Shown here: positions 2,168 to 9,675 of the stretch, one piece after another
How the letters are laid out: each line of letters begins with the position of its first letter
Position numbering within the stretch: the stretch's first letter is position 1
Source: a virus
Lineage: Duplodnaviria; Heunggongvirae; Uroviricota; Caudoviricetes
Length of the DNA: 37,292 nucleotides
Virus record (IMG/VR): IMGVR_UViG_2703718872_000034
Reading direction: 5' to 3' (one strand)
Translations under genes and position numbers: made by a program
Notes under the pieces: generated by a model
What the model saw: only the letters and a program-made list of their open reading frames with translations
Told to the model about the DNA's origin: nothing
Databases searched by the model: none

Positions 2168-3100
2168 ATGACCGATATTAACGATGTAATCAAGACCATT
2201 GATGAACTTATTGATGGCGGCGTACTGACGCAGTATGTCATCGCCAGAGAGGCGGGAATTTCCGACGGCACATTATCGGCTTTCCGCAAAGGGAAATATA
2301 AAGGAGACAATGATGCTATAGCAGCGACTATGCTCTCCTGGTACAAAGACTGGAAAAAGCGGCCTTCCCTGCCGGAACCGCCGCAGTTTGTGGAGACACC
2401 GACGGTACGGGAACTGCGGGCGGTGTTTCAGGCGGCACGCCTGATGGGCTGTATTAACATCATTGTGGGCGTACCAGGTGTGGGTAAAACAGTCACCGCC
2501 AGCAATTATTGTCAGGAGCAACCGAACACCTGGATGATCACCCTGTCTCCCGCGCATTCCAGCGTCACTGAGTGTCTGCTGGAGCTGGCAGAGGAGCTGG
2601 GGATTGATTACACCCGCGCGAACAAGGGGGCGTTATCCCGCGCCATCCGCCGTCGCCTGATGGGAACGCGTGGACTGGTGATTGTGGATGAGGCGGATCA
2701 TCTTGGTATTGACGGTCTGGAGCAGATCCGGGCAATCCAGGACGCCACGAGTGTAGGGATGGTGCTTATCGGTAACCCGAAAGGACTGTTCTCAGAATCG
2801 CGTAGTGACACGAATAATTTAGCACGCCTGTTCAGCCGTATTGCCAGGGTTAAACAGTTGCATGAGGCCAAAAAAGAGGATGTGCTGGATATTGCCGGAG
2901 CATGGGGTATCAGTGGAGAGGAAGAGCTGGACGCCATGCAGGCTATCGCTGAAAAACCGGGAGCATTACGCGTTCTGACACATACGCTTAACCAGGCATG
3001 GATCGCTGCCAGCGGTGAAGGTACGACGCTGACAAAAAAACACATTAATACGGCCTTTAAAGAGGTTTATACAGAACCCGATTCGCTATTAAAGGTGTGA
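2168..3100 (+). CDS. B: transposition ATPase MuB-like
   Basis: 310 aa, Walker A GVPGVGKT, size and position immediately after A as in Mu; RBS GAGG upstream of ATG. Confidence 0.88.
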   Translation: MTDINDVIKTIDELIDGGVLTQYVIAREAGISDGTLSAFRKGKYKGDNDAIAATMLSWYKDWKKRPSLPEPPQFVETPTVRELRAVFQAARLMGCINIIVGVPGVGKTVTASNYCQEQPNTWMITLSPAHSSVTECLLELAEELGIDYTRANKGALSRAIRRRLMGTRGLVIVDEADHLGIDGLEQIRAIQDATSVGMVLIGNPKGLFSESRSDTNNLARLFSRIARVKQLHEAKKEDVLDIAGAWGISGEEELDAMQAIAEKPGALRVLTHTLNQAWIAASGEGTTLTKKHINTAFKEVYTEPDSLLKV

Positions 3101-3102
3101 TT

Positions 3103-3324
3103 ATGGTTGTATTTAATATTCCTGATATTTACGGACGCTTTTACCTGATTAATTTCGATAACGTGAAGGTGATTTCACTGGCCGAAAATAAAGAATGTGG
3201 CGATTTACTTTTTGAATTTAATGACCGCACACGAATGGTGATATCTGCCGGACTTGATCGCGAAGGTGCGACAGAAGTTTACAGCGGAATATGCCGTTCT
3301 GTTGGTGCGAAACAAGTCAGCTAA
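3103..3324 (+). CDS. small early protein, possible Kil-like by position and size (73 aa)
   Basis: ORF overlapping B stop; first gene after B as kil is in Mu; no motif recognised. Confidence 0.35.
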   Translation: MVVFNIPDIYGRFYLINFDNVKVISLAENKECGDLLFEFNDRTRMVISAGLDREGATEVYSGICRSVGAKQVS

Positions 3325-3336
3325 ATGAGGTGTTAT

Positions 3337-3594
3337 ATGAATATGCAATCCTGCGGTAACAAAATGAATTTATTCGACTCCCTGAACAGCGCGCGCCGTC
3401 TGACCGAACTTGCCGGTGCGGTACTGGAACGCAGCAAACGCTACCCACAGCGCTTTGCACTGAAAACCACGCCGCCGGTAGGTGAGGTTCAGGGGAGTGG
3501 TGAGGAAATTGAAATCACCGTTAAGACCAACGGCCTGCGCCGCCGTGTGAAGGCCACCCGTATAAGCGGATGCACGGTTTACTGGGAAGTATGA
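3337..3594 (+). CDS. hypothetical early protein
   Basis: ORF with GAGG RBS before ATG at 3337; longer ORF from 3325 possible. Confidence 0.35.
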   Translation: MNMQSCGNKMNLFDSLNSARRLTELAGAVLERSKRYPQRFALKTTPPVGEVQGSGEEIEITVKTNGLRRRVKATRISGCTVYWEV

Positions 3595-3668
3595 AGTTGC
3601 TTCATGGTTCGGCTCTGTCATCAGGTCAGACGCCGGGTCAGTTATCCGAACAAAACGAGGACCAGAGG

Positions 3669-3941
3669 ATGAGTAAAGTCGTACGCATTATTTTCGAATA
3701 CAAGGAGCACGTTATCCATAAAAACGCGGATGGAACAGTGCACATGGGGGTAAGTCTGGACATACGTTCAACCGGGATAAAGCAGAAAGGTGATGGACCT
3801 GCCATGATTTTTGGGGTGGTTATGCTCGCGGAAAGCAGAGACTTTGCTGAACTTGTGGCAATGAAAGCCAGTGCGCTCATGAAAGATATGAACATGAGTT
3901 CCGGGGTTATTAAAGGTAATGAATTTAATCAGCAGGGGTAA
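3669..3941 (+). CDS. hypothetical early protein, paralogue 1 (MSKVVRIIFEY...)
   Basis: ORF with internal ATG preceded by GAGGA; N-terminus homologous to next gene. Confidence 0.45.
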   Translation: MSKVVRIIFEYKEHVIHKNADGTVHMGVSLDIRSTGIKQKGDGPAMIFGVVMLAESRDFAELVAMKASALMKDMNMSSGVIKGNEFNQQG

Positions 3942-3945
3942 TTCC

Positions 3946-4239
3946 ATGAGCAAAGTACGCGTTATTTTTGAATTTGACCACGTAATGCATGAAGTAAAGC
4001 CAGCCGGTAATGATAGTAAGGAAATCACGGAGGGGGTTACTGCCACGGTAAAAATCGAACGTAATACAGAGAACAGACCGGCAGGACCCTGTGATGTTTA
4101 TGCACAAATTCTTAAATATCACAGCCCCACAATTATTCAGTTTCTGACAGATGAACTACAGGGTTCCATGCAGGCTATGGGGGTGAAAAGCAGCATTGAG
4201 CGCCGTTCTTTGCAGAACGCACCAGATACATTGCAATAA
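3946..4239 (+). CDS. hypothetical early protein, paralogue 2 (MSKVRVIFEF...)
   Basis: ORF starting 5 nt after previous stop; shared N-terminal motif MSKV-R-IFE with preceding gene. Confidence 0.45.
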   Translation: MSKVRVIFEFDHVMHEVKPAGNDSKEITEGVTATVKIERNTENRPAGPCDVYAQILKYHSPTIIQFLTDELQGSMQAMGVKSSIERRSLQNAPDTLQ

Positions 4240-4250
4240 GGAAAAACAAA

Positions 4251-4781
4251 ATGGCTAAACGCGTTACAAAATTAAAGGCCGCAGCCGAGGCTGCACCACA
4301 GACCCGTGAAGAGGTTAGCCGCGATATCCGCACCCTGGGCGATATTCAGCGAGAGGCGCTGCGCCTGGAAACGGCAATGAATGATGAAGTGGCAGAAATC
4401 ACCGCCCGTTATACGCCGCAGATTGAAAACCTTAAAAAAGAAATCAAAGTGCTTTTTAAGGGGATTCAGGACTGGTGTAAAACCAACCGCGATGAGCTGA
4501 CGAACGGCGGCAAAACAAAAACTGCCAATCTGACCACCGGAACGGTGTCATGGCGGCTGGGAACGCCATCATGCAGCGTCAGCCGTGATGTGGAAGGTGT
4601 GATTGAAATGCTGCGCCGTATGGGCCTTGAGCGTTTCATCCGCACGAAAGAGGAAGTGAATAAGGAAGCGGTCCTGGCGGAGCCGGATGCGGTGAAAGGG
4701 ATTGCCGGTATTAAGGTGAATAAAGGTGCTGAAAGTTTTTATGTCGAGCCTTTTGAACAGGATGCCGGACTGAATAAATAA
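4251..4781 (+). CDS. gam: host-nuclease inhibitor Gam (Mu Gam family, Ku-like)
   Basis: 176 aa; strong similarity by recall to Mu Gam (RLETAMNDE..., ANRDELTNGGKTKTANL, RFIRTK-E-NKEA); RBS AAGGA. Confidence 0.85.
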   Translation: MAKRVTKLKAAAEAAPQTREEVSRDIRTLGDIQREALRLETAMNDEVAEITARYTPQIENLKKEIKVLFKGIQDWCKTNRDELTNGGKTKTANLTTGTVSWRLGTPSCSVSRDVEGVIEMLRRMGLERFIRTKEEVNKEAVLAEPDAVKGIAGIKVNKGAESFYVEPFEQDAGLNK

Positions 4782-4865
4782 CACTGCATTAATCAATTAA
4801 ATATCACTTCATTTTAATTATGGCGCTTGCGTCAGGGGACTGCTCGCGCCTGAATGAGGCATATC

Positions 4866-5444
4866 ATGAGTATAAAATATCGTTATTTTAAAATGAATGA
4901 GCGCGATTCCCGTCATTATCACAGGGAATGGCTTGATTGCGCTGGCAGGGAGCGCCAGAAATTGATTGATGATTTTCTCAGTAATCATAGAGCTAAAGGA
5001 TACCTTTACTTCTGGTGTTGTGGGCATATTTTTGTCACATCAATACTGGTTCATGAGGATGTTGATGTCGGAAGAAATAAGCGGGTGCTGTCTGATAAAT
5101 TTGATGAAGATGGCCGCGTTTTATTTTCAGTTAAGCCCGACCGCAGATTCAGAGAGGGAAAAAAACTGAACAAAGCACTGAATATCTTAAACGAGAAGTT
5201 AAAACAGCTTCCGTCATTCAGTACCTGGATGGTTAATAAACTGGACTGCTATTTTGAGGTTTTTGGTGTCAGCAACGGCCGCACAGTTATGGCGTGCTCT
5301 TCTGCCGGGTTCTATGGCGACAAAGGGGCTGTTGTGGTTCGTATTCCTGTCGGTGAATCAGATAATGCCTTTTCACCTGAAAAGCTGCATCCGTCATTGA
5401 TGGCAATCAAGCATTCCGAATTCATCGCAATAACGGAGGAATAA
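4866..5444 (+). CDS. hypothetical protein
   Basis: ORF preceded by AT-rich intergenic region; GAGG RBS before ATG at 4866 (alternative ATG 4854). Confidence 0.45.
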   Translation: MSIKYRYFKMNERDSRHYHREWLDCAGRERQKLIDDFLSNHRAKGYLYFWCCGHIFVTSILVHEDVDVGRNKRVLSDKFDEDGRVLFSVKPDRRFREGKKLNKALNILNEKLKQLPSFSTWMVNKLDCYFEVFGVSNGRTVMACSSAGFYGDKGAVVVRIPVGESDNAFSPEKLHPSLMAIKHSEFIAITEE

Positions 5445-5447
5445 TTC

Positions 5448-5981
5448 ATGATTGATGCAAAAGTGCTTGAAGGGGTTAAAAACTGGCTGCGTATTTACGG
5501 ACGTCTGACCTGCGGTGTTCTGGCTGAAAAAATGAATATGCCGCCATCCTCGATGGTTTATTTTCTGCGTGATGCGGTTGATGCCGGGGTGCTGACGGAA
5601 TGTAACGGTTTTTATGATATTCCGCGTCCCCGCCCGGTGCAGCCGGTTCGTCGCAAATGCAGCCAGGAAGGTGCGGCTGATGATGTTCAGTGGTGCAGCT
5701 TCAGAAAATCCCTGCCGTGGATTGAGGGGCATGATATTCCGTCGATGGCGTGGGAATTTGCTCAGGGCGTACTGACCTGCGAAACCGTTTATGTGGTGGC
5801 TGAAGTTGATGAGCAGGCCATGAAAGAAGGCGTGCCCCAGTTTGTGATGGCGTATATCGACATCCGCCTGGGCGTCATTATCTGCGGTTTAAGCGGCTGG
5901 AATATCACCTCGCGCGTTCTGCGTTACCTGATTGTTGACCGGACAGCGGCACCGGCCGCGATTTCTGCGGAGGTGGCGTAA
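5448..5981 (+). CDS. hypothetical protein, possible N-terminal winged-helix
   Basis: ORF tightly packed after previous gene; no family recognised. Confidence 0.45.
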   Translation: MIDAKVLEGVKNWLRIYGRLTCGVLAEKMNMPPSSMVYFLRDAVDAGVLTECNGFYDIPRPRPVQPVRRKCSQEGAADDVQWCSFRKSLPWIEGHDIPSMAWEFAQGVLTCETVYVVAEVDEQAMKEGVPQFVMAYIDIRLGVIICGLSGWNITSRVLRYLIVDRTAAPAAISAEVA

Positions 5982-6496
5982 TGTTCTTTAAAACTTCAAA
6001 CCCTTCCGCGCTGGCTGCGTGGCAAAAATACCAGCAGGACTGCCAGACGGTAAAAGATGAGGCAAAACGCCTTGAGGCTGTGCTGAATGTTGCGTGCCGC
6101 CCGGTATTTGTATCCGGTATCAGTGGATTTTGTTTTAAGGGGCTGCGCTTTATGGATGACAAATATCCTTTTCATCGCGACTTATGGAGAAAACCGACTG
6201 CGTCGAATGGCTGGAGCTGCACGCCGCGCACATCACGTATACCTAAAACCCTGCGTGTTGCCTCTGATGAACTGAACAGTCTGTGGCGTGAATATTCGCC
6301 CGTCACGTATGCCAGAACCGATGCGCTGTTGTTCTGGCTGGGCATTGACTTCTCGGCAATACTGTTTGGCCCCGTTAAGTGGTTCTGCGTTGACAATGTT
6401 ATTTACCTTCAGTGCGAAGATGATTCCGCAAAACGGAAAATGACCGAAATTCTGTCTGATGAGTTTTATGCTGCTGAAAAGCGAGTCAGGGGGTGA
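5981..6496 (+). CDS. hypothetical protein
   Basis: ORF with ATGA overlap to previous gene. Confidence 0.45.
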   Translation: MFFKTSNPSALAAWQKYQQDCQTVKDEAKRLEAVLNVACRPVFVSGISGFCFKGLRFMDDKYPFHRDLWRKPTASNGWSCTPRTSRIPKTLRVASDELNSLWREYSPVTYARTDALLFWLGIDFSAILFGPVKWFCVDNVIYLQCEDDSAKRKMTEILSDEFYAAEKRVRG

Positions 6497-6499
6497 TGT

Positions 6500-7051
6500 A
6501 TGATGATATTACAACCCATGGGACGAAAAGGTCGGGCACCCGCTCATGTCCGCGCATGGACACCTGAAGAAGATGCACTGCTGATTGCGCTTTATCCATC
6601 CACCCCGGTTAAGGATATTGCTGTCAGAGTAAAAAGAAGTTACTGGGGAGTATATAACCGGATTGTTTTATTACGCGGTACTTACCCGGAGTTGCTCAAA
6701 TGCAAACGTCCCAGATTTAAACATGATGAAGATAAATTTATCCGAAAAAATGCCAGAACAATGACCGGTAAGCAAATAGGAGAATATCTGGAGCGAGACC
6801 GGGATTCTGTCCACAATCGGGCGCGATATATTGGCGTAAGCATGAAAAAATACGGAGAATTACTGCCTTTTACCCGCATACCTGACGATGATGTTCATCT
6901 TATTCGTGAATTACGGGATGCTGAATCACCACGACGTCTTACCTTCCGGGAAATAGGCGAGAAATTTGAATTATCCGAGAGTACGGTGAATTTTATTTAT
7001 CACCATCGCCGGACTGCCGGGGATGTTGTATTACGGGAGTTAACGCCATGA
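6500..7051 (+). CDS. hypothetical protein with three internally repeated helix-turn-helix-like segments
   Basis: 183 aa; repeated segments PVKDIAVRVKRSYWGVYNRI / MTGKQIGEYLERDRDSVHNRARYIG / LTFREIGEKFELSESTVNFIYHHRR. Confidence 0.45.
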   Translation: MMILQPMGRKGRAPAHVRAWTPEEDALLIALYPSTPVKDIAVRVKRSYWGVYNRIVLLRGTYPELLKCKRPRFKHDEDKFIRKNARTMTGKQIGEYLERDRDSVHNRARYIGVSMKKYGELLPFTRIPDDDVHLIRELRDAESPRRLTFREIGEKFELSESTVNFIYHHRRTAGDVVLRELTP

Positions 7052-7380
7052 TAACGACCTTATTTGTTGAATCAGACGAACCTCTGGTATGTGCCGCCGG
7101 GATGCCGGTCTGTGGCGGAACCCTGACTGGGGTTTATTTCGGGGATTTGCGCGGTTATCCCTGGCATTCACTGAATGATGCTTTCCCGCCTGATATGGAG
7201 GCTGTTGTACTGATTGTTCAGTACGGTCACCGACAGGAGCTGCGCATCGGCCATATCGGGTATGAAGGTTTTTTTGTTGATGAAGAAACCGGAGCCTGCC
7301 TTGAAGATGAGGACGGACAGGTGACGCACTGGTGTCATATTTCGGCCTTACCGGAATTACAGGGGATACATAATGGATGA
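7048..7380 (+). CDS. hypothetical protein
   Basis: ORF overlapping previous stop by 4 nt. Confidence 0.4.
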   Translation: MITTLFVESDEPLVCAAGMPVCGGTLTGVYFGDLRGYPWHSLNDAFPPDMEAVVLIVQYGHRQELRIGHIGYEGFFVDEETGACLEDEDGQVTHWCHISALPELQGIHNG

Positions 7381-7513
7381 GCAAATTGTTGAATGTCCCA
7401 CCTGTGGAAATGAGGCTCCGGAGTATCTGAAAGAGTGCCCACATTGTGGTGAGGTAAAATGTAATCACTGCGATATGGGCGACGACACTGCATGTATGAA
7501 TTGTGAGGATTAA
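7373..7513 (+). CDS. small Cys-rich protein (46 aa) with four CxxC pairs, zinc-ribbon-like
   Basis: Not in ORF track (<60 aa); ATG at 7373 overlaps previous gene end; translation MDEQIVECPTCGNEAPEYLKECPHCGEVKCNHCDMGDDTACMNCED. Confidence 0.4.
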   Translation: MDEQIVECPTCGNEAPEYLKECPHCGEVKCNHCDMGDDTACMNCED

Positions 7514-7517
7514 TAAT

Positions 7518-7805
7518 ATGGAAAAAGAAATCAAATTTGCTCCTAAAGATATCGACGAAGAACTGGCTAAAATCGGCATGCTTGAACGTATGCGGGACAT
7601 TATCGAATATGCGATAAAAGAAAATCTTGCAGCCAGAGAAGCCCTTTTGATAATGGAGCGGGAGATTAACCTGATTAAGGATGCTGTATCTCTGGATAAT
7701 AAAATAGCCCGCGAGGAATACGTTCGCCGCAGGCTCGGTGTTGATGGTTCAGCAATTCTTACATCTGAACATTATGCAAAAATTTTTAATCTTTTTCAGC
7801 GGTAA
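7518..7805 (+). CDS. hypothetical helical protein
   Basis: ORF, ATG at 7518 just after previous stop; 3' end overlaps convergent minus-strand ORF. Confidence 0.4.
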   Translation: MEKEIKFAPKDIDEELAKIGMLERMRDIIEYAIKENLAAREALLIMEREINLIKDAVSLDNKIAREEYVRRRLGVDGSAILTSEHYAKIFNLFQR

Positions 7806-8025
7806 TCCCCATGCAGGCCCGGAGATTGTCGAAATGCCAGTCGGTATTAATATATGAGCCATCCTGGATCTCTTCTGCATTTTCCGGGGTAGAGTTTTTT
7901 TGAGCGAGATTGATAATATGTATTGCCTCCTCACGGGAAATAACCCCCTTATCGAACAGGGTTACCATAAGATTTCCAGCCATTGTGAATGCGGCAACAT
8001 CAAGGGCATTTTTTATATCTGACAT
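7786..8025 (-). CDS. hypothetical protein (79 aa) encoded antisense to the early operon
   Basis: Minus-strand ORF with AAGGAA RBS about 8 nt upstream of ATG; only minus-strand gene in the early region. Confidence 0.4.
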   Translation of the reverse strand: MSDIKNALDVAAFTMAGNLMVTLFDKGVISREEAIHIINLAQKNSTPENAEEIQDGSYINTDWHFDNLRACMGITAEKD

Positions 8026-8053
8026 AGATTTTTCCTTTTATGTTAATTGACAT

Positions 8054-8081
8054 GGCGGTGCGGTAACACCGCCCATTTTTT
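8054..8081 (+). terminator. intrinsic-terminator-like hairpin (GGCGGTG / CACCGCC, loop CGGTAA) followed by T6
   Basis: Perfect 7-bp GC-rich inverted repeat plus TTTTTT read directly from sequence, 15 bp upstream of the GemA-like start. Confidence 0.45.
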
Positions 8082-8095
8082 ATGGAGCCACGATA

Positions 8096-8608
8096 ATGAA
8101 TCGCGCTTCCCTGATTACCTTAATACATGTCGCAAAACGCGATCTACAGCTTGACCGGGAGACCTATACATCCGCGCTGCTGGCAGCCACCGGCAAAACC
8201 AGCTGCCGGGATATGTCACCGGATGAGTTATCCCGCGTGCTGGATGTTTTCAAAAAACGCGGTTTTAAAGTGCGTCAGAACCCGGTTAACCGGGCCTTAA
8301 AACCGGGTACAGTGACCGCTAAAATTCGCGCCATCTGGAAGGTGATGCACCGGCAGGGCTTTATCTCTGATGGTGCGGAAACCGCTCTTAACCGCTGGGT
8401 GAAATCGCAGACGGCCGCGCAGAACGGCGGCGAAGGTGTGGCAAACTGGCAGTGGCTGGAGCAACACCCCGCCCTGGCCTCAGATGTGCTGGAGCGTCTC
8501 AAGCGATGGCACCGCCGCAAAATGCTGGCCGCGATGGGAATGCCCGAACGCACGCTGATGGGGTATGACGCCGTTTGCAGGCAGTATGAAAAATCACTTC
8601 CCCGTTAA
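8096..8608 (+). CDS. GemA-like protein (Mu gp16 family)
   Basis: 170-aa ORF in the position of Mu gemA, before the Mor/C gene; GGAG RBS; family assignment by recall only. Confidence 0.55.
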   Translation: MNRASLITLIHVAKRDLQLDRETYTSALLAATGKTSCRDMSPDELSRVLDVFKKRGFKVRQNPVNRALKPGTVTAKIRAIWKVMHRQGFISDGAETALNRWVKSQTAAQNGGEGVANWQWLEQHPALASDVLERLKRWHRRKMLAAMGMPERTLMGYDAVCRQYEKSLPR

Positions 8609-8612
8609 CCCC

Positions 8613-8644
8613 AAATCCCGCCACAACGCGGGATTTTTATTTTA
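8613..8644 (+). terminator. rho-independent terminator (9-bp stem AAATCCCGC / GCGGGATTT, loop CACAAC, T-rich tail)
   Basis: Perfect inverted repeat followed by TTTATTTT, immediately after GemA-like stop. Confidence 0.7.
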
Positions 8645-8677
8645 AACTTACCGGGAACGCGAGAACCGGAGGCTGAT

Positions 8678-9103
8678 ATGGCAGAAACTCAGATGAGCAT
8701 GTTTGGTGGTGACAGTGAGCAACTGCACGCCCTTATCGACCGCCTTGATGACATCCCTGATGATGTTCTCAAAAAGAACTGGCCGCGGACCCTGTCTGAA
8801 CTGGTTGAAGTCACCGGCGCAGAACTTCAGCGTCAGGGGATTGAGCCGGTACTGGCCGGTAAACTGGCACGCAAGGTGGCTGCGGCTCAGGCAGCCTATA
8901 TGGGCGGACGGGGTTATTACCTGCCGGTCGGGGAATCTCTCTTTGCCGAGCTGCGAAACAATGAGATATTTTCGCGCTGGGACCGGGGCGAGAAGATTGA
9001 ATCCCTTCGCCGCCATTACCGGATGTCAGAAACCCAGATTTATACCGTCATACGTGAACAGCGCCGTCTGCATCTGGCAAGAACGCAACCGCCACTTTTC
9101 TGA
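8678..9103 (+). CDS. Mor/C-family transcriptional activator of middle/late genes
   Basis: 141 aa; C-terminal HTH-like segment SLRRHYRMSETQIYTVIREQRR typical of Mor/C family; located just upstream of lys; GGAGG RBS; cannot decide between Mor and C. Confidence 0.7.
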   Translation: MAETQMSMFGGDSEQLHALIDRLDDIPDDVLKKNWPRTLSELVEVTGAELQRQGIEPVLAGKLARKVAAAQAAYMGGRGYYLPVGESLFAELRNNEIFSRWDRGEKIESLRRHYRMSETQIYTVIREQRRLHLARTQPPLF

Positions 9104-9174
9104 TATTCCGCAAAGCCTGCCGCCTTTCCTTCACCGTTACGCTGACTCAGAGAACATCATGAGACAGCGTAACA

Positions 9175-9675
9175 ATGCCAAAACTCCCCGCACCACTGCG
9201 TAAAAAGCTGATTGCCCTTGTTCTGGCCGGTGCCGGGACGTTCACGATTGCCACGCATTACACCGGTTACTGGGAAGGGAAAGAAAACTCCACGTATATC
9301 GATCCCACCGGTACACCCACCATCTGTTACGGCCATACCGGCCCGGATGTGAAACCGGGTATGACCCTGACGGATGAAGAATGTCTGAAACTGCTGGAAA
9401 AGGACATGAAATGGGCCTTTGCGGCCATTGATCGGCGTGTTCAGGTGCCGCTTACCCGTGGTCAGACGGTGGCGCTGGCTTCGTGGATCTTCTGGGCCGG
9501 TGAAACGAACTTTCGCAACTCCACGCTTCTGCGCCTGATCAATGCCGGACAGATGCCCGCGTCCTGTAAGCAGTATATCCGCTGGATTTATTCAAAGGGG
9601 GTGAAACTTCCCGGCCTTGAGGCCCGCCGTTCGGCGGATGAATGGTTATGTCGCTACGACTTGCCGAAAGTCTGA
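9175..9675 (+). CDS. lys: SAR endolysin (phage lysozyme, T4-lysozyme-like fold)
   Basis: 166 aa; N-terminal hydrophobic signal-anchor LIALVLAGAGTFTIA then E...D...T catalytic spacing (WEGKE, YID, TGTPT). Confidence 0.85.
   Translation: MPKLPAPLRKKLIALVLAGAGTFTIATHYTGYWEGKENSTYIDPTGTPTICYGHTGPDVKPGMTLTDEECLKLLEKDMKWAFAAIDRRVQVPLTRGQTVALASWIFWAGETNFRNSTLLRLINAGQMPASCKQYIRWIYSKGVKLPGLEARRSADEWLCRYDLPKV

What the first reader, a model, noticed from the sequence alone, without database searches (positions are those of the whole stretch)
4866..6496. Block of three unrecognised early genes after gam
Three tightly packed genes of 193, 177 and 171 aa follow gam, preceded by an AT-rich stretch (4782..4865), and none match families I can recognise. 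In Mu the corresponding semi-essential region carries host-takeover functions, and such early accessory slots are where anti-defence or host-modulating genes typically sit. These are reasonable candidates for uncharacterised anti-restriction or anti-defence proteins.
Basis: inference. Interest (0 to 1): 0.5.

Follow-up and report, generated by a model that had tools for sequence, protein, structure and literature searches.

The report
Mu early genes with swappable cassette
The three genes after gam are real early genes of a Mu-like E. coli prophage: two are the counterparts of phage Mu's still-uncharacterised gp11 and gp12, and the first is a DUF5420-family gene in a slot that otherwise near-identical prophages fill with very different versions or leave empty, so it is a fair but unproven candidate for a host-interaction or counter-defence gene.

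Summary
Three tightly packed, probably translationally coupled + strand genes follow gam: ORF-A 4866-5444 (192 aa), ORF-B 5448-5981 (177 aa) and ORF-C 5981-6496 (171 aa). All are under purifying selection. They do match curated families, though none has a known function.

- **ORF-B** is the orthologue of Mu gp11 (69% identity, Pfam Gp11_C).
- **ORF-C** is the orthologue of Mu gp12 (51% identity). Both keep Mu's synteny.
- **ORF-A** is a DUF5420/phrog_2260 protein. Mu lacks it and SfMu has it.

ORF-A occupies a polymorphic slot. Of 232 complete E. coli genomes carrying this region, 9 have the window's allele. Another 214 have an allele only 23% identical in protein, with flanks about 95% identical in DNA. 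Others have a deletion.

Profile-profile comparison and two independent AlphaFold models suggest ORF-A and gp12 are distant paralogues. Their fold has no match in the PDB. gp11 was present in every locus examined, while ORF-A and gp12 come and go independently.

No tool result shows an anti-defence activity. That idea stays plausible for ORF-A, less so for gp12, and is unsupported for gp11. A conserved hairpin-containing element (4812-4853) marks the 5' edge of the slot.

Overall these are new members of known, uncharacterised families, of modest interest.

The parts
4251..4781 (+). gam (Mu Gam-like DNA-end-binding protein). This is the upstream neighbour, given for context.
   Evidence: PF07352 at 5.4e-42 and phrog_491 at 2.4e-70. 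It is 57% identical to Mu Gam by tblastn.
4812..4853 (+). Conserved leader element TTTTAATTATGGCGC..GCGTCAGGGGACTGC..GCGCCTGA with a predicted hairpin (outer stem 4822-4826 / 4846-4850). It marks the 5' boundary of the variable slot.
   Evidence: Fifty unique versions occur across the enterobacterial Mu-like loci fetched. It is better conserved than the flanking coding DNA. RNAalifold predicts 10 pairs, with one compensatory pair and three G-U changes. It is not a terminator or promoter by consensus scan and has no Rfam hit. Homology with the alternative allele ends at 4852.
4866..5444 (+). ORF-A: a DUF5420 / phrog_2260 protein of 192 aa, and the variable cassette gene. The exchanged segment is about 4853-5401.
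   Evidence: PF17457 scores 51.4 bits against a cut-off of 26, and phrog_2260 scores 1.5e-36 over the full length. The exhaustive representative search found 91 relatives with E-value up to 0.001. Only 9 of 5426 E. coli genomes carry this allele, while 214 carry an allele 23% identical in protein. G+C is 42.5% against 53.7% for ORF-B. dN/dS is 0.28.
5448..5981 (+). ORF-B: orthologue of Mu gp11 (Mup11). It has a probable N-terminal winged-helix domain, a Pro/Arg-rich linker and a Gp11_C domain.
   Evidence: It is 69% identical to Mu gp11 over 177 aa (E 2e-83). PF25754 scores 135.5 bits and phrog_1949 scores 7e-106. Winged-helix hits are sub-threshold only. It was present in every Mu-like locus examined, which were retrieved via ORF-A or via gp11 itself. 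dN/dS is 0.17.
5981..6496 (+). ORF-C: orthologue of Mu gp12 (Mup12, formerly E13), and a probable distant paralogue of ORF-A.
   Evidence: It is 51% identical to Mu gp12 over 169 aa (E 4e-63). phrog_2314 scores 1.3e-81, and its homologues carry PF26885. hhalign against DUF5420 gives P of 6e-5 to 1.6e-4 over 158 columns end to end, while controls score 18 or less. The order of secondary-structure elements in its AlphaFold model (pLDDT 84.4) broadly matches the ORF-A model. dN/dS is 0.20.
6500..7051 (+). ORF-D: an HTH protein (phrog_323, 'D5-like transcriptional regulator'). It is the next tightly packed gene and is not part of the finding. Mu has no counterpart at this position.
   Evidence: phrog_323 scores 2.8e-56, with sub-threshold HTH Pfam hits. 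It has two allele classes, about 70% and at least 90% identity, among otherwise similar prophages.

Best explanation
**What it is (shown).** The block is the gam-distal part of the Mu-type semi-essential early operon in an E. coli Mu-like prophage. Its parts, in order, are:
- a conserved leader element with a hairpin;
- a slot that holds an exchangeable DUF5420-family gene (ORF-A);
- the orthologue of Mu gp11 (ORF-B);
- the orthologue of Mu gp12 (ORF-C).

**How it is expressed (inferred from layout).** The genes are probably read from the early promoter as one transcript. Their spacing suggests translational coupling.

**How it most likely works (inference).**
- gp11 is the constant component. 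It probably binds DNA through a very conserved N-terminal winged helix.
- ORF-A and gp12 are two diverged copies of one alpha+beta fold with no known relative. I read them as non-enzymatic binding proteins that act early, alongside Gam, on a host factor or a DNA transaction.
- Both are dispensable, and they are gained, lost and swapped between otherwise near-identical prophages. That is the behaviour of host-interaction genes, whether takeover or counter-defence, rather than core replication genes.

**Confidence split.** The identity assignments are near certain. The functional reading is about one in three.
For: **Identity and synteny.** Mu's order is gam-gp11-gp12. ORF-B is 69% identical to Mu gp11 and ORF-C is 51% identical to Mu gp12. 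PGAP labels in identical or similar genomes read 'DUF5420 family protein' and 'Mu-Gp12 family protein'.

**One operon, probable translational coupling.** Gaps are 3, -1 and 3 nt, each gene has a Shine-Dalgarno motif, and no internal promoter or terminator match was found.

**The slot is a cassette.**
- 232 E. coli genomes carry the region. Nine have this allele and 214 have one 23% identical in protein. Homology breaks at 4852 and resumes at 5402.
- At least four allele classes appear in IMG/VR loci.
- Empty slots are deletion derivatives. One keeps a 14-codon relic, and Mu keeps the terminal GAGGAATAA.

**gp11 constant, ORF-A and gp12 optional.** Among 71 gp11-centred loci with both flanks visible, counts are A+/gp12+ 29, A-/gp12+ 22, A-/gp12- 14 and A+/gp12- 6. 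In SfMu, gp12 is a frameshifted pseudogene.

**Paralogy of ORF-A and gp12.**
- hhalign scores 32-33 over 158 collinear columns, against 18 or less for reversed, shuffled and gp11 controls.
- The order of secondary-structure elements in the two AlphaFold models broadly matches, apart from an extra beta hairpin in ORF-A.
- One Vibrio phage protein matches the gp12 profile over its whole length and the DUF5420 profile at its N-terminus.
- The SfMu authors had already raised this possibility (PMC4406740).

**Both families occur outside Mu-like phages.** They sit in early gene arrays, often near recombination, replication or nucleotide-metabolism genes.

**All three are functional genes.** dN/dS is 0.17-0.28.
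Against: **No function shown.** No tool result demonstrates a function for any of the three.

**Weak points in specific claims.**
- The winged-helix call for gp11 rests on sub-threshold Pfam hits, best E 0.012.
- The ORF-A model is only moderate (pLDDT 72.6, C-terminal third poor, 6-sequence alignment).
- The paralogy rests on an hhalign probability of 36-64%, which is not conclusive.

**Limits of the comparative evidence.**
- Mosaicism is general in this early region. The gene upstream of gam and ORF-D also have two allele classes. So the slot is the extreme of a trend, not a unique feature.
- Gene neighbourhoods of distant family members show no single theme.
- Net charge is not conserved in the DUF5420 family (pI 4.5-9.7), so no general nucleic-acid-binding or DNA-mimic property can be claimed.
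- 'gp11 constant' is partly by construction, because the loci were retrieved through ORF-A or gp11.
Confidence: 0.5

Rival explanations
1. All three proteins are dedicated anti-restriction or anti-defence proteins, each inhibiting a host immune system early in infection.
For: **Timing and position.** They are expressed early and sit next to gam, which itself protects DNA ends from host nucleases.

**ORF-A population pattern.** ORF-A shows allele replacement and presence/absence polymorphism in near-identical prophages. Its G+C is lower than its neighbours'.

**Distribution.** The family is spread over unrelated phages in arrays of small early genes. One such array also carries a Lar restriction-alleviation gene and a DNA methylase.

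Against: **gp11 does not fit.** It was present in every locus examined, and its N-terminal domain is almost invariant between E. coli and Salmonella lineages.

**No mimic or diversifying signal.** ORF-A and gp12 are basic (pI 8.9), so they are not acidic DNA mimics. dN/dS within an allele class is below 0.3, so there is no sign of positive selection within a class.
Confidence: 0.2
2. The genes encode the classical but unassigned Mu function 'arm' (amplified replication of Mu), or a similar accessory factor for replicative transposition. gp11 would bind DNA, and gp12 and ORF-A would assist it.
For: [quoted passage not shown] Functions between B and C amplify Mu replication and were ascribed to arm (PMC10052514, refs 19-20). 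From my own memory, not verified here, the classical genetic map places arm after gam/sot.

**Sequence and context.**
- gp11 has a probable winged helix.
- One DUF5420 member lies between an O-like replication initiator and a DnaB-like helicase.
- Others lie beside Erf-YqaJ-SSB, a helicase and exonucleases, a ligase, or a weak clamp-like ORF.
Against: **No assignment found.** The searchable literature does not assign arm to any ORF.

**Behaviour does not fit a replication factor.**
- ORF-A and gp12 are absent from many apparently intact Mu-like prophages.
- ORF-A alleles differ by 77% of residues between near-identical phages.
- Both families also occur in phages that do not transpose.
Confidence: 0.2
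3. The genes are prophage-expressed lysogenic-conversion or superinfection-exclusion genes that benefit the host.
For: **Polymorphic gene.** ORF-A is an accessory gene of low G+C in a polymorphic slot.

**Host background.** The prophage lineage is common in EHEC/STEC genomes.
Against: **No independent expression signal.** The genes sit inside the early lytic operon, with no promoter-like site of their own and no terminator isolating them. In Mu this operon is repressed in lysogens, which is established Mu biology (Repc).

**No envelope targeting.** By eye I saw no signal peptide or membrane segment in the translations; no predictor was run.
Confidence: 0.05

Closest known systems
Bacteriophage Mu gp11 (Mup11; formerly E10+E11+E12; Pfam PF25754 Gp11_C; phrog_1949)
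   Same: ORF-B is 69% identical over its full length. It occupies the same position downstream of gam and upstream of gp12, and has the same two-domain layout.
   Different: In the window it is preceded by ORF-A, not directly by the gam leader. Neither protein has a known function.
Bacteriophage Mu gp12 (Mup12; formerly E13; phrog_2314; PF26885, 'Mu-Gp12 family')
   Same: ORF-C is 51% identical over 169 aa. It keeps the same position and the same TAATG start/stop overlap with gp11.
   Different: It is more diverged than gp11. The gene is missing or decayed in many relatives. Function is unknown.
DUF5420 (PF17457) / phrog_2260, for example SfMu ORF11 and homologues in Haemophilus phage SuMu and Mannheimia phage 3927AP2. 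One member, in Vibrio phage H188, is labelled 'EaC protein' by its depositor.
   Same: ORF-A scores above the Pfam cut-off and matches phrog_2260 end to end. It has the family motifs: N-terminal Y-F, PDRRxKxGK, and C-terminal IKxSEFIALTEE.
   Different: The Pfam match covers only residues 81-189. The window allele is rare, found in 9 of 5426 E. coli genomes. I did not verify the 'EaC' label against P22 EaC. Function is unknown.
Early accessory regions of temperate phages, such as the P22 ea genes and lambda early-left non-essential genes, and anti-defence 'accessory slots' in general
   Same: These are small early genes of unknown function beside recombination or end-protection genes. They vary between close relatives. 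DUF5420 members sit in such regions in lambdoid/P22-like contigs.
   Different: This is a resemblance in genome behaviour only. No shared sequence or demonstrated activity links ORF-A to a known anti-defence protein.

Membership tests
Pfam DUF5420 (PF17457) / phrog_2260 - ORF-A | Profile score above the curated cut-off | tested here: met
   PF17457 scores 51.4 bits against a cut-off of 26, but only over residues 81-189. phrog_2260 scores 1.5e-36 over residues 1-192. All 60 aligned relatives hit phrog_2260 and 52 hit PF17457.
Pfam DUF5420 (PF17457) / phrog_2260 - ORF-A | Family motifs and length (about 180-195 aa, single domain, conserved C-terminus IKxSEFIALTEE) | tested here: met
   See the alignments. 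Column frequencies are, and hit lengths are.
Mu gp11 family (PF25754 Gp11_C) - ORF-B | Full-length similarity to Mu gp11 and a Gp11_C domain above the cut-off | tested here: met
   69% identity, E 2e-83. PF25754 scores 135.5 bits against a cut-off of 27.
Mu gp11 family (PF25754 Gp11_C) - ORF-B | Synteny: in the early operon, between gam and gp12 | tested here: met
   Mu annotation and locus tables.
Mu gp12 family (phrog_2314 / PF26885) - ORF-C | Full-length similarity to Mu gp12 and a profile match | tested here: met
   51% identity over 169 aa, E 4e-63. phrog_2314 scores 1.3e-81. PF26885 is precomputed on all 46 homologues, but the local Pfam copy lacks it, so ORF-C itself was not scored against it.
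Winged-helix DNA-binding domain - N-terminus of ORF-B | Significant match to a winged-helix/HTH profile or fold | tested here: inconclusive
   Only sub-threshold hits were found, all over residues about 17-49: HTH_20 (best E 0.012, 4 of 24 members), HTH_CodY, PCI and WH4_Lhr.
Known anti-defence / anti-restriction proteins (Ocr, ArdA, KlcA, Gam, Abc2, Acb, Tad, Gad, Had, Acr and others) | Sequence or fold similarity to a characterised member | tested here: not met
Known anti-defence / anti-restriction proteins | DNA-mimic character (strongly acidic surface) | tested here: not met
   pI is 8.9 for ORF-A, 5.2 for ORF-B and 8.9 for ORF-C. Family pI ranges from 4.5 to 9.7.
Known anti-defence / anti-restriction proteins | Demonstrated inhibition of a host defence system | not testable with these tools
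   This needs plating or efficiency-of-plating assays with defence-carrying hosts.
PD-(D/E)xK nucleases (considered because ORF-A has PDRRFREGK) | PD and (D/E)xK on adjacent beta strands, conserved across the family | tested here: not met
   Only 4 residues separate D92 from E97-x-K99. The model places them at a strand end and a helix start. By my reading of the alignments, the acidic residues are not conserved in DUF5420 and are absent from gp12, which has PRxSRIP.
Mu 'arm' function (amplified replication of Mu) | Genetic assignment of arm to these ORFs | not testable with these tools
   The literature places arm in the semi-essential region but gives no ORF assignment in the papers I could read.

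The most novel reading that the evidence does not exclude
DUF5420 and Mu-gp12 form one previously unrecognised superfamily of phage early proteins with a new alpha+beta fold. They would act as exchangeable counter-defence or host-takeover modules. In Mu-like prophages, the cassette beside gam would be swapped by recombination between the conserved hairpin leader and the conserved 3' end. This would match the phage to the nuclease or defence repertoire of its host, with gp11 as the fixed DNA-binding partner.
Probability: 0.2. Interest if true: 0.6.

Novelty: new member of a known kind. Interest (0 to 1): 0.3.

Why it matters
Phage Mu is a textbook model, yet most of its semi-essential early genes still have no function. 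Two genetically defined functions, arm and cim, have no ORF assignment in the papers I could read.

This analysis gives three concrete starting points for experiments:
- gp11 is the constant component of the block.
- gp12 and the DUF5420 gene are probably two copies of one fold.
- The DUF5420 slot is a natural allele-replacement site. There are at least four allele classes, and two dominate in EHEC/STEC E. coli.

These natural variants make isogenic comparisons possible. If the cassette proved to be a counter-defence or takeover module, it would add a widespread new family and a simple example of cassette exchange in a transposable phage. If not, the genes remain ordinary uncharacterised Mu early genes.

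Tried and rejected
**Searches that found nothing useful**
- PDB sequence and profile searches for all three families were empty. The 'Gawi_09' hit (E 0.13) is probably a de novo designed protein, since the only paper found that uses that name is on de novo cysteine proteases. The MIF hits are a chance 20-residue match.
- NCBIfam and PADLOC returned nothing.
- Rfam at E up to 1 over 3000-9500 returned nothing.
- Eight literature searches for DUF5420, the Pfam/PHROG accessions, Mu gp11/gp12, and anti-defence in Mu found no functional study. The PhiKMV ligase preprint only matched 'phage mutants'.
- The single genome-contig scan with one protein returned only one locus, from Citrobacter braakii.
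- The first search for related loci attempt with the 60-sequence alignment failed for lack of a conserved stretch.

**Ideas tested and rejected**
- *gp11 always needs ORF-A or gp12.* Rejected, because 14 loci have gp11 with neither.
- *DUF5420 always travels with gp11/gp12.* Rejected, because distant members have no gp11 or gp12 nearby.
- *The PDRRFREGK motif marks a PD-(D/E)xK nuclease.* Rejected on spacing and lack of conservation.
- *The conserved C-terminal TEE is only the gp11 ribosome-binding site.* Rejected, because it is kept in non-Mu contexts.
- *The leader hairpin is a terminator or promoter.* No T-run follows it and no promoter match was found. Its single-sequence fold z-score is only -1.08.
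Full report
**1. What is in the sequence**

The window is a Mu-like prophage. MuA is at 1-2091, MuB at 2168-3100 and gam at 4251-4781 (PF07352, 5.4e-42). GemA is at 8096-8608, followed by a Mor-like ORF.

The region 4251-7051 is 100% identical to a prophage in STEC strain 2012EL-2448. It is 95% identical to a Mu-like element inserted in an Stx1a phage.

After gam come three + strand genes:
- ORF-A, 4866-5444, 192 aa.
- ORF-B, 5448-5981, 177 aa.
- ORF-C, 5981-6496, 171 aa.

A fourth tightly packed gene follows at 6500-7051. The spacings are 3 nt, a 1-nt overlap (TAATG) and 3 nt. Each gene has a Shine-Dalgarno motif.

No promoter-like or terminator-like site lies within the block on the + strand. 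The next terminator-like hairpin is at 8054-8073. The genes are therefore most simply read as part of the early transcript, with probable translational coupling (inference from layout).

Pairwise dN/dS over natural alleles is 0.28 for A, 0.17 for B and 0.20 for C. For comparison it is 0.09 for gam and 0.12 for MuB. All three are real genes under selection.

**2. Two of the three are Mu gp11 and gp12**

The RefSeq Mu record has gam (Mup10), then gp11 (176 aa, formerly E10+E11+E12), then gp12 (176 aa, formerly E13).
- ORF-B is 69% identical to Mu gp11 over its whole length (E 2e-83). It carries Pfam Gp11_C (135.5 bits) and phrog_1949.
- ORF-C is 51% identical to Mu gp12 over 169 residues (E 4e-63). 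It matches phrog_2314. Its homologues carry PF26885, and PGAP names some of them 'Mu-Gp12 family protein'.

Orthology and synteny are therefore clear. Function is not: every source name is 'hypothetical', and eight full-text searches found no functional study.

The gp11 alignment shows three parts:
- an almost invariant N-terminal domain of about 58 residues;
- a variable Pro/Arg-rich linker;
- a conserved C-terminal domain.

The N-terminal domain gives only sub-threshold hits, all to winged-helix families: HTH_20 (best E 0.012), HTH_CodY, PCI and WH4_Lhr. A winged helix is therefore probable but not shown.

**3. ORF-A is a DUF5420 gene in a polymorphic slot**

*Family membership.* ORF-A passes the Pfam cut-off for DUF5420 (51.4 bits, residues 81-189). 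It matches phrog_2260 end to end. Mu has no such gene. SfMu does, as its ORF11.

An exhaustive profile search found only 91 relatives with E up to 0.001. Nearly all are 170-210 aa and single-domain.

*Two alleles in E. coli.* Among 5426 complete E. coli genomes, 232 carry the gam-to-ORF-D region at 89-100% DNA identity. Only 9 carry the window's ORF-A. Another 214 carry a different 180-aa gene in the same place.

That protein is only 23% identical to ORF-A (BLASTP 3e-9). It shares the N-terminal Y-x-Y-F-K and the C-terminal IKHSE(F/Y)(I/V)A(I/L)TEE.

DNA homology between the two prophage types runs at about 95% up to window position 4852. It resumes at 5402.

*Further alleles and empty slots.* IMG/VR loci show at least four allele classes relative to the window allele:
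- 91-100% identity;
- 47-52% identity (one such locus is from Citrobacter braakii);
- 26-27% identity (SfMu-like);
- 23-24% identity (EHEC-like).

Empty slots are deletion derivatives. One type keeps a 14-codon relic, MKYVYIVINNVVGK, with a family-like start. Mu itself keeps ...GAGGAATAA just before the gp11 ATG, which is the last codons and stop of a lost DUF5420 gene.

ORF-A has 42.5% G+C against 53.7% for ORF-B.

*Caveat.* Mosaicism is not confined to this slot. The gene before gam and ORF-D each have two allele classes as well. ORF-A is the extreme case.

**4. gp11 is constant; ORF-A and gp12 are optional**

Eighty gp11-centred IMG/VR loci were retrieved, of which 71 have both flanks visible. 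Their gene content is:

| ORF-A | gp12 | Loci |
|---|---|---|
| present | present | 29 |
| absent | present | 22 |
| absent | absent | 14 |
| present | absent | 6 |

So gp11 does not need either neighbour, and there is no either/or pattern. 'gp11 constant' is partly by construction, since these loci were retrieved through gp11.

SfMu has an intact DUF5420 gene and a frameshifted, unannotated gp12.

Distant DUF5420 members have no gp11 or gp12 nearby.

**5. ORF-A and gp12 are probably distant paralogues**

Several lines of evidence point the same way.
- *Profile comparison.* hhalign of the DUF5420 family (60 sequences) against the gp12 family gives scores of 30-33. Probability is 36-64% and P is 6e-5 to 4e-4, over 156-158 collinear columns from N- to C-terminus.
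- *Controls.* A reversed profile, 20 column-shuffled profiles and gp11 all score 9.8-18.0 over short stretches.
- *Matching motifs.* Y-F-K aligns with F-F-K at the first strand. PDRRxKxGKxL aligns with PRxSRIPxxL. EIKKSEFIAL aligns with EILSDEFYAA at the end.
- *Independent models.* Two AlphaFold models broadly share the order of elements: strand, long helix, two strands, two or three helices, further strands, C-terminal helix. ORF-A has an extra beta hairpin (pLDDT 72.6). gp12 has pLDDT 84.4.
- *A bridging protein.* A Vibrio phage protein matches the gp12 profile over its full length (41 bits) and the DUF5420 profile at its N-terminus (13 bits).

The SfMu authors had speculated that SfMu ORF11 and Mu gp12 might be divergent homologues (PMC4406740). 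I rate the paralogy at about 75%. It is not proven.

**6. No known fold, no known activity**

The PDRRFREGK motif is not a PD-(D/E)xK nuclease signature. The spacing is wrong, it falls on a strand end and a helix start, and gp12 lacks it.

Net charge is not conserved in the family (pI 4.5-9.7). That argues against both a general DNA-mimic role and a general nucleic-acid-binding role.

The most striking conserved feature is the extreme C-terminus ...IKxSEFIALTEE. It is kept in 78-90% of members at 26% mean identity, including outside Mu-like phages. It remains unexplained.

**7. Context in other phages**

DUF5420 members occur in these settings:
- P22/lambda-like early operons beside Erf-YqaJ-SSB, one of which also has Lar and a DNA methylase;
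- between an O-like replication initiator and a DnaB-like helicase;
- after a CII-like activator and before TraR and Q;
- next to a dNMP phosphatase and near an RNase T-type exonuclease;
- in a 113-kb contig near endonuclease V and dCTP deaminase;
- after exonuclease VIII, a Cas4-like exonuclease, a helicase and an RNase H-like gene in Vibrio phage H188, where the depositor calls it 'EaC protein'.

gp12-like proteins (26-30% identity, full length) occur in Klebsiella, Vibrio and Acinetobacter phages that do not appear Mu-like. Some lie near a DNA ligase or a dUTPase.

The recurring setting is the early, DNA-centred part of phage genomes. Phage early regions are full of such genes, so this is weak evidence.

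**8. How it most likely works**

*Shown.* The identities, the orthology, the operon layout, the cassette behaviour and purifying selection.

*Inferred.*
- gp11 is a DNA-binding core component.
- ORF-A and gp12 are non-enzymatic binding proteins of one fold. They act early beside Gam on a host factor or a DNA transaction.
- Their gain, loss and replacement between near-identical prophages fits host-interaction genes better than core replication genes.

*Rivals.*
- Dedicated anti-defence proteins. This is plausible for ORF-A, has no direct support, and does not fit gp11.
- The unassigned Mu function arm, which amplifies Mu replication and lies in this region (PMC4553209; PMC10052514, refs 19-20). 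The optional, fast-changing nature of ORF-A and gp12, and their presence in non-transposing phages, argue against this.
- Lysogenic conversion. This is unlikely inside the repressed early operon.

**9. Verdict**

These are new members of known but uncharacterised families: Mu gp11, Mu gp12 and DUF5420. What is new here:
- the sharply bounded allele-replacement slot;
- the probable DUF5420-gp12 relationship;
- the conserved leader element.

These points make the genes more tractable for experiment, but they do not reveal a function. Interest is modest.

Noticed in passing
window 4812-4853 (hairpin stems 4822-4826 / 4846-4850): A leader element, TTTTAATTATGGCGC..GCGTCAGGGGACTGC..GCGCCTGA, is conserved in the enterobacterial Mu-like loci fetched (50 unique versions). 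It is better conserved than the coding DNA around it. In loci where no gam-like gene was detected directly upstream (including one from Citrobacter braakii), the element is still present. The predicted hairpin has one compensatory pair and three wobble changes. It is not a terminator, promoter or Rfam family. Function is unknown, and it coincides with the 5' recombination boundary of the cassette.
   Followed up: partly
window 5402-5444; alignment A4: The extreme C-terminus of the DUF5420 family (...EIKxSEFIALTEE-COOH) is nearly invariant. The rest of the protein averages 26% identity, and net charge ranges from pI 4.5 to 9.7. In Mu-like phages the same codons also supply the gp11 Shine-Dalgarno (GGAGGAATAA). 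The motif is kept where gp11 is absent, so it is constrained at the protein level.
   Followed up: partly
window 6500-7051: The next gene, ORF-D (183 aa, pI 9.9), matches phrog_323 'D5-like transcriptional regulator'. PGAP labels it variously as DNA-binding, AsnC family or SANT/Myb-like. Mu has no counterpart at this position. It has two allele classes, about 70% and at least 90% identity, among otherwise similar prophages.
   Followed up: no
L008 9828-10525 (E. coli 2012EL-2448; corresponds to window about 7806-8095): The otherwise 100% identical prophage copy in strain 2012EL-2448 carries an IS1A insertion between the gp14-like gene and gemA. The window lacks it.
   Followed up: no
L003 5591-5722 and 5790-6158 (Shigella phage SfMu, NC_027382): SfMu has an unannotated, frameshifted gp12 pseudogene downstream of its gp11 homologue. 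The published description says Mu gp12 has no SfMu homologue.
   Followed up: yes
L007 929-973 (E. coli CP55_Sichuan) and at least ten IMG/VR loci with a 146-nt gam-gp11 spacer: The 'empty slot' variant keeps a 14-codon mini-ORF, MKYVYIVINNVVGK. Its start resembles the DUF5420 N-terminus, and it ends just before the gp11 ATG. It is probably a deletion scar that preserves translational coupling.
   Followed up: partly
window 8054-8073: This is the only strong intrinsic-terminator-like hairpin in 4000-8200 on the + strand: GGCGGTGCGGTAACACCGCC followed by a T-run. It sits just upstream of gemA.
   Followed up: no
window 7048-7380: ORF-E (110 aa, pI 4.3, net charge -14) is a strongly acidic small early protein (phrog_6925, unknown function). 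It is present in some relatives and absent in others. By charge alone it looks more like a DNA-mimic candidate than the three flagged genes.
   Followed up: no
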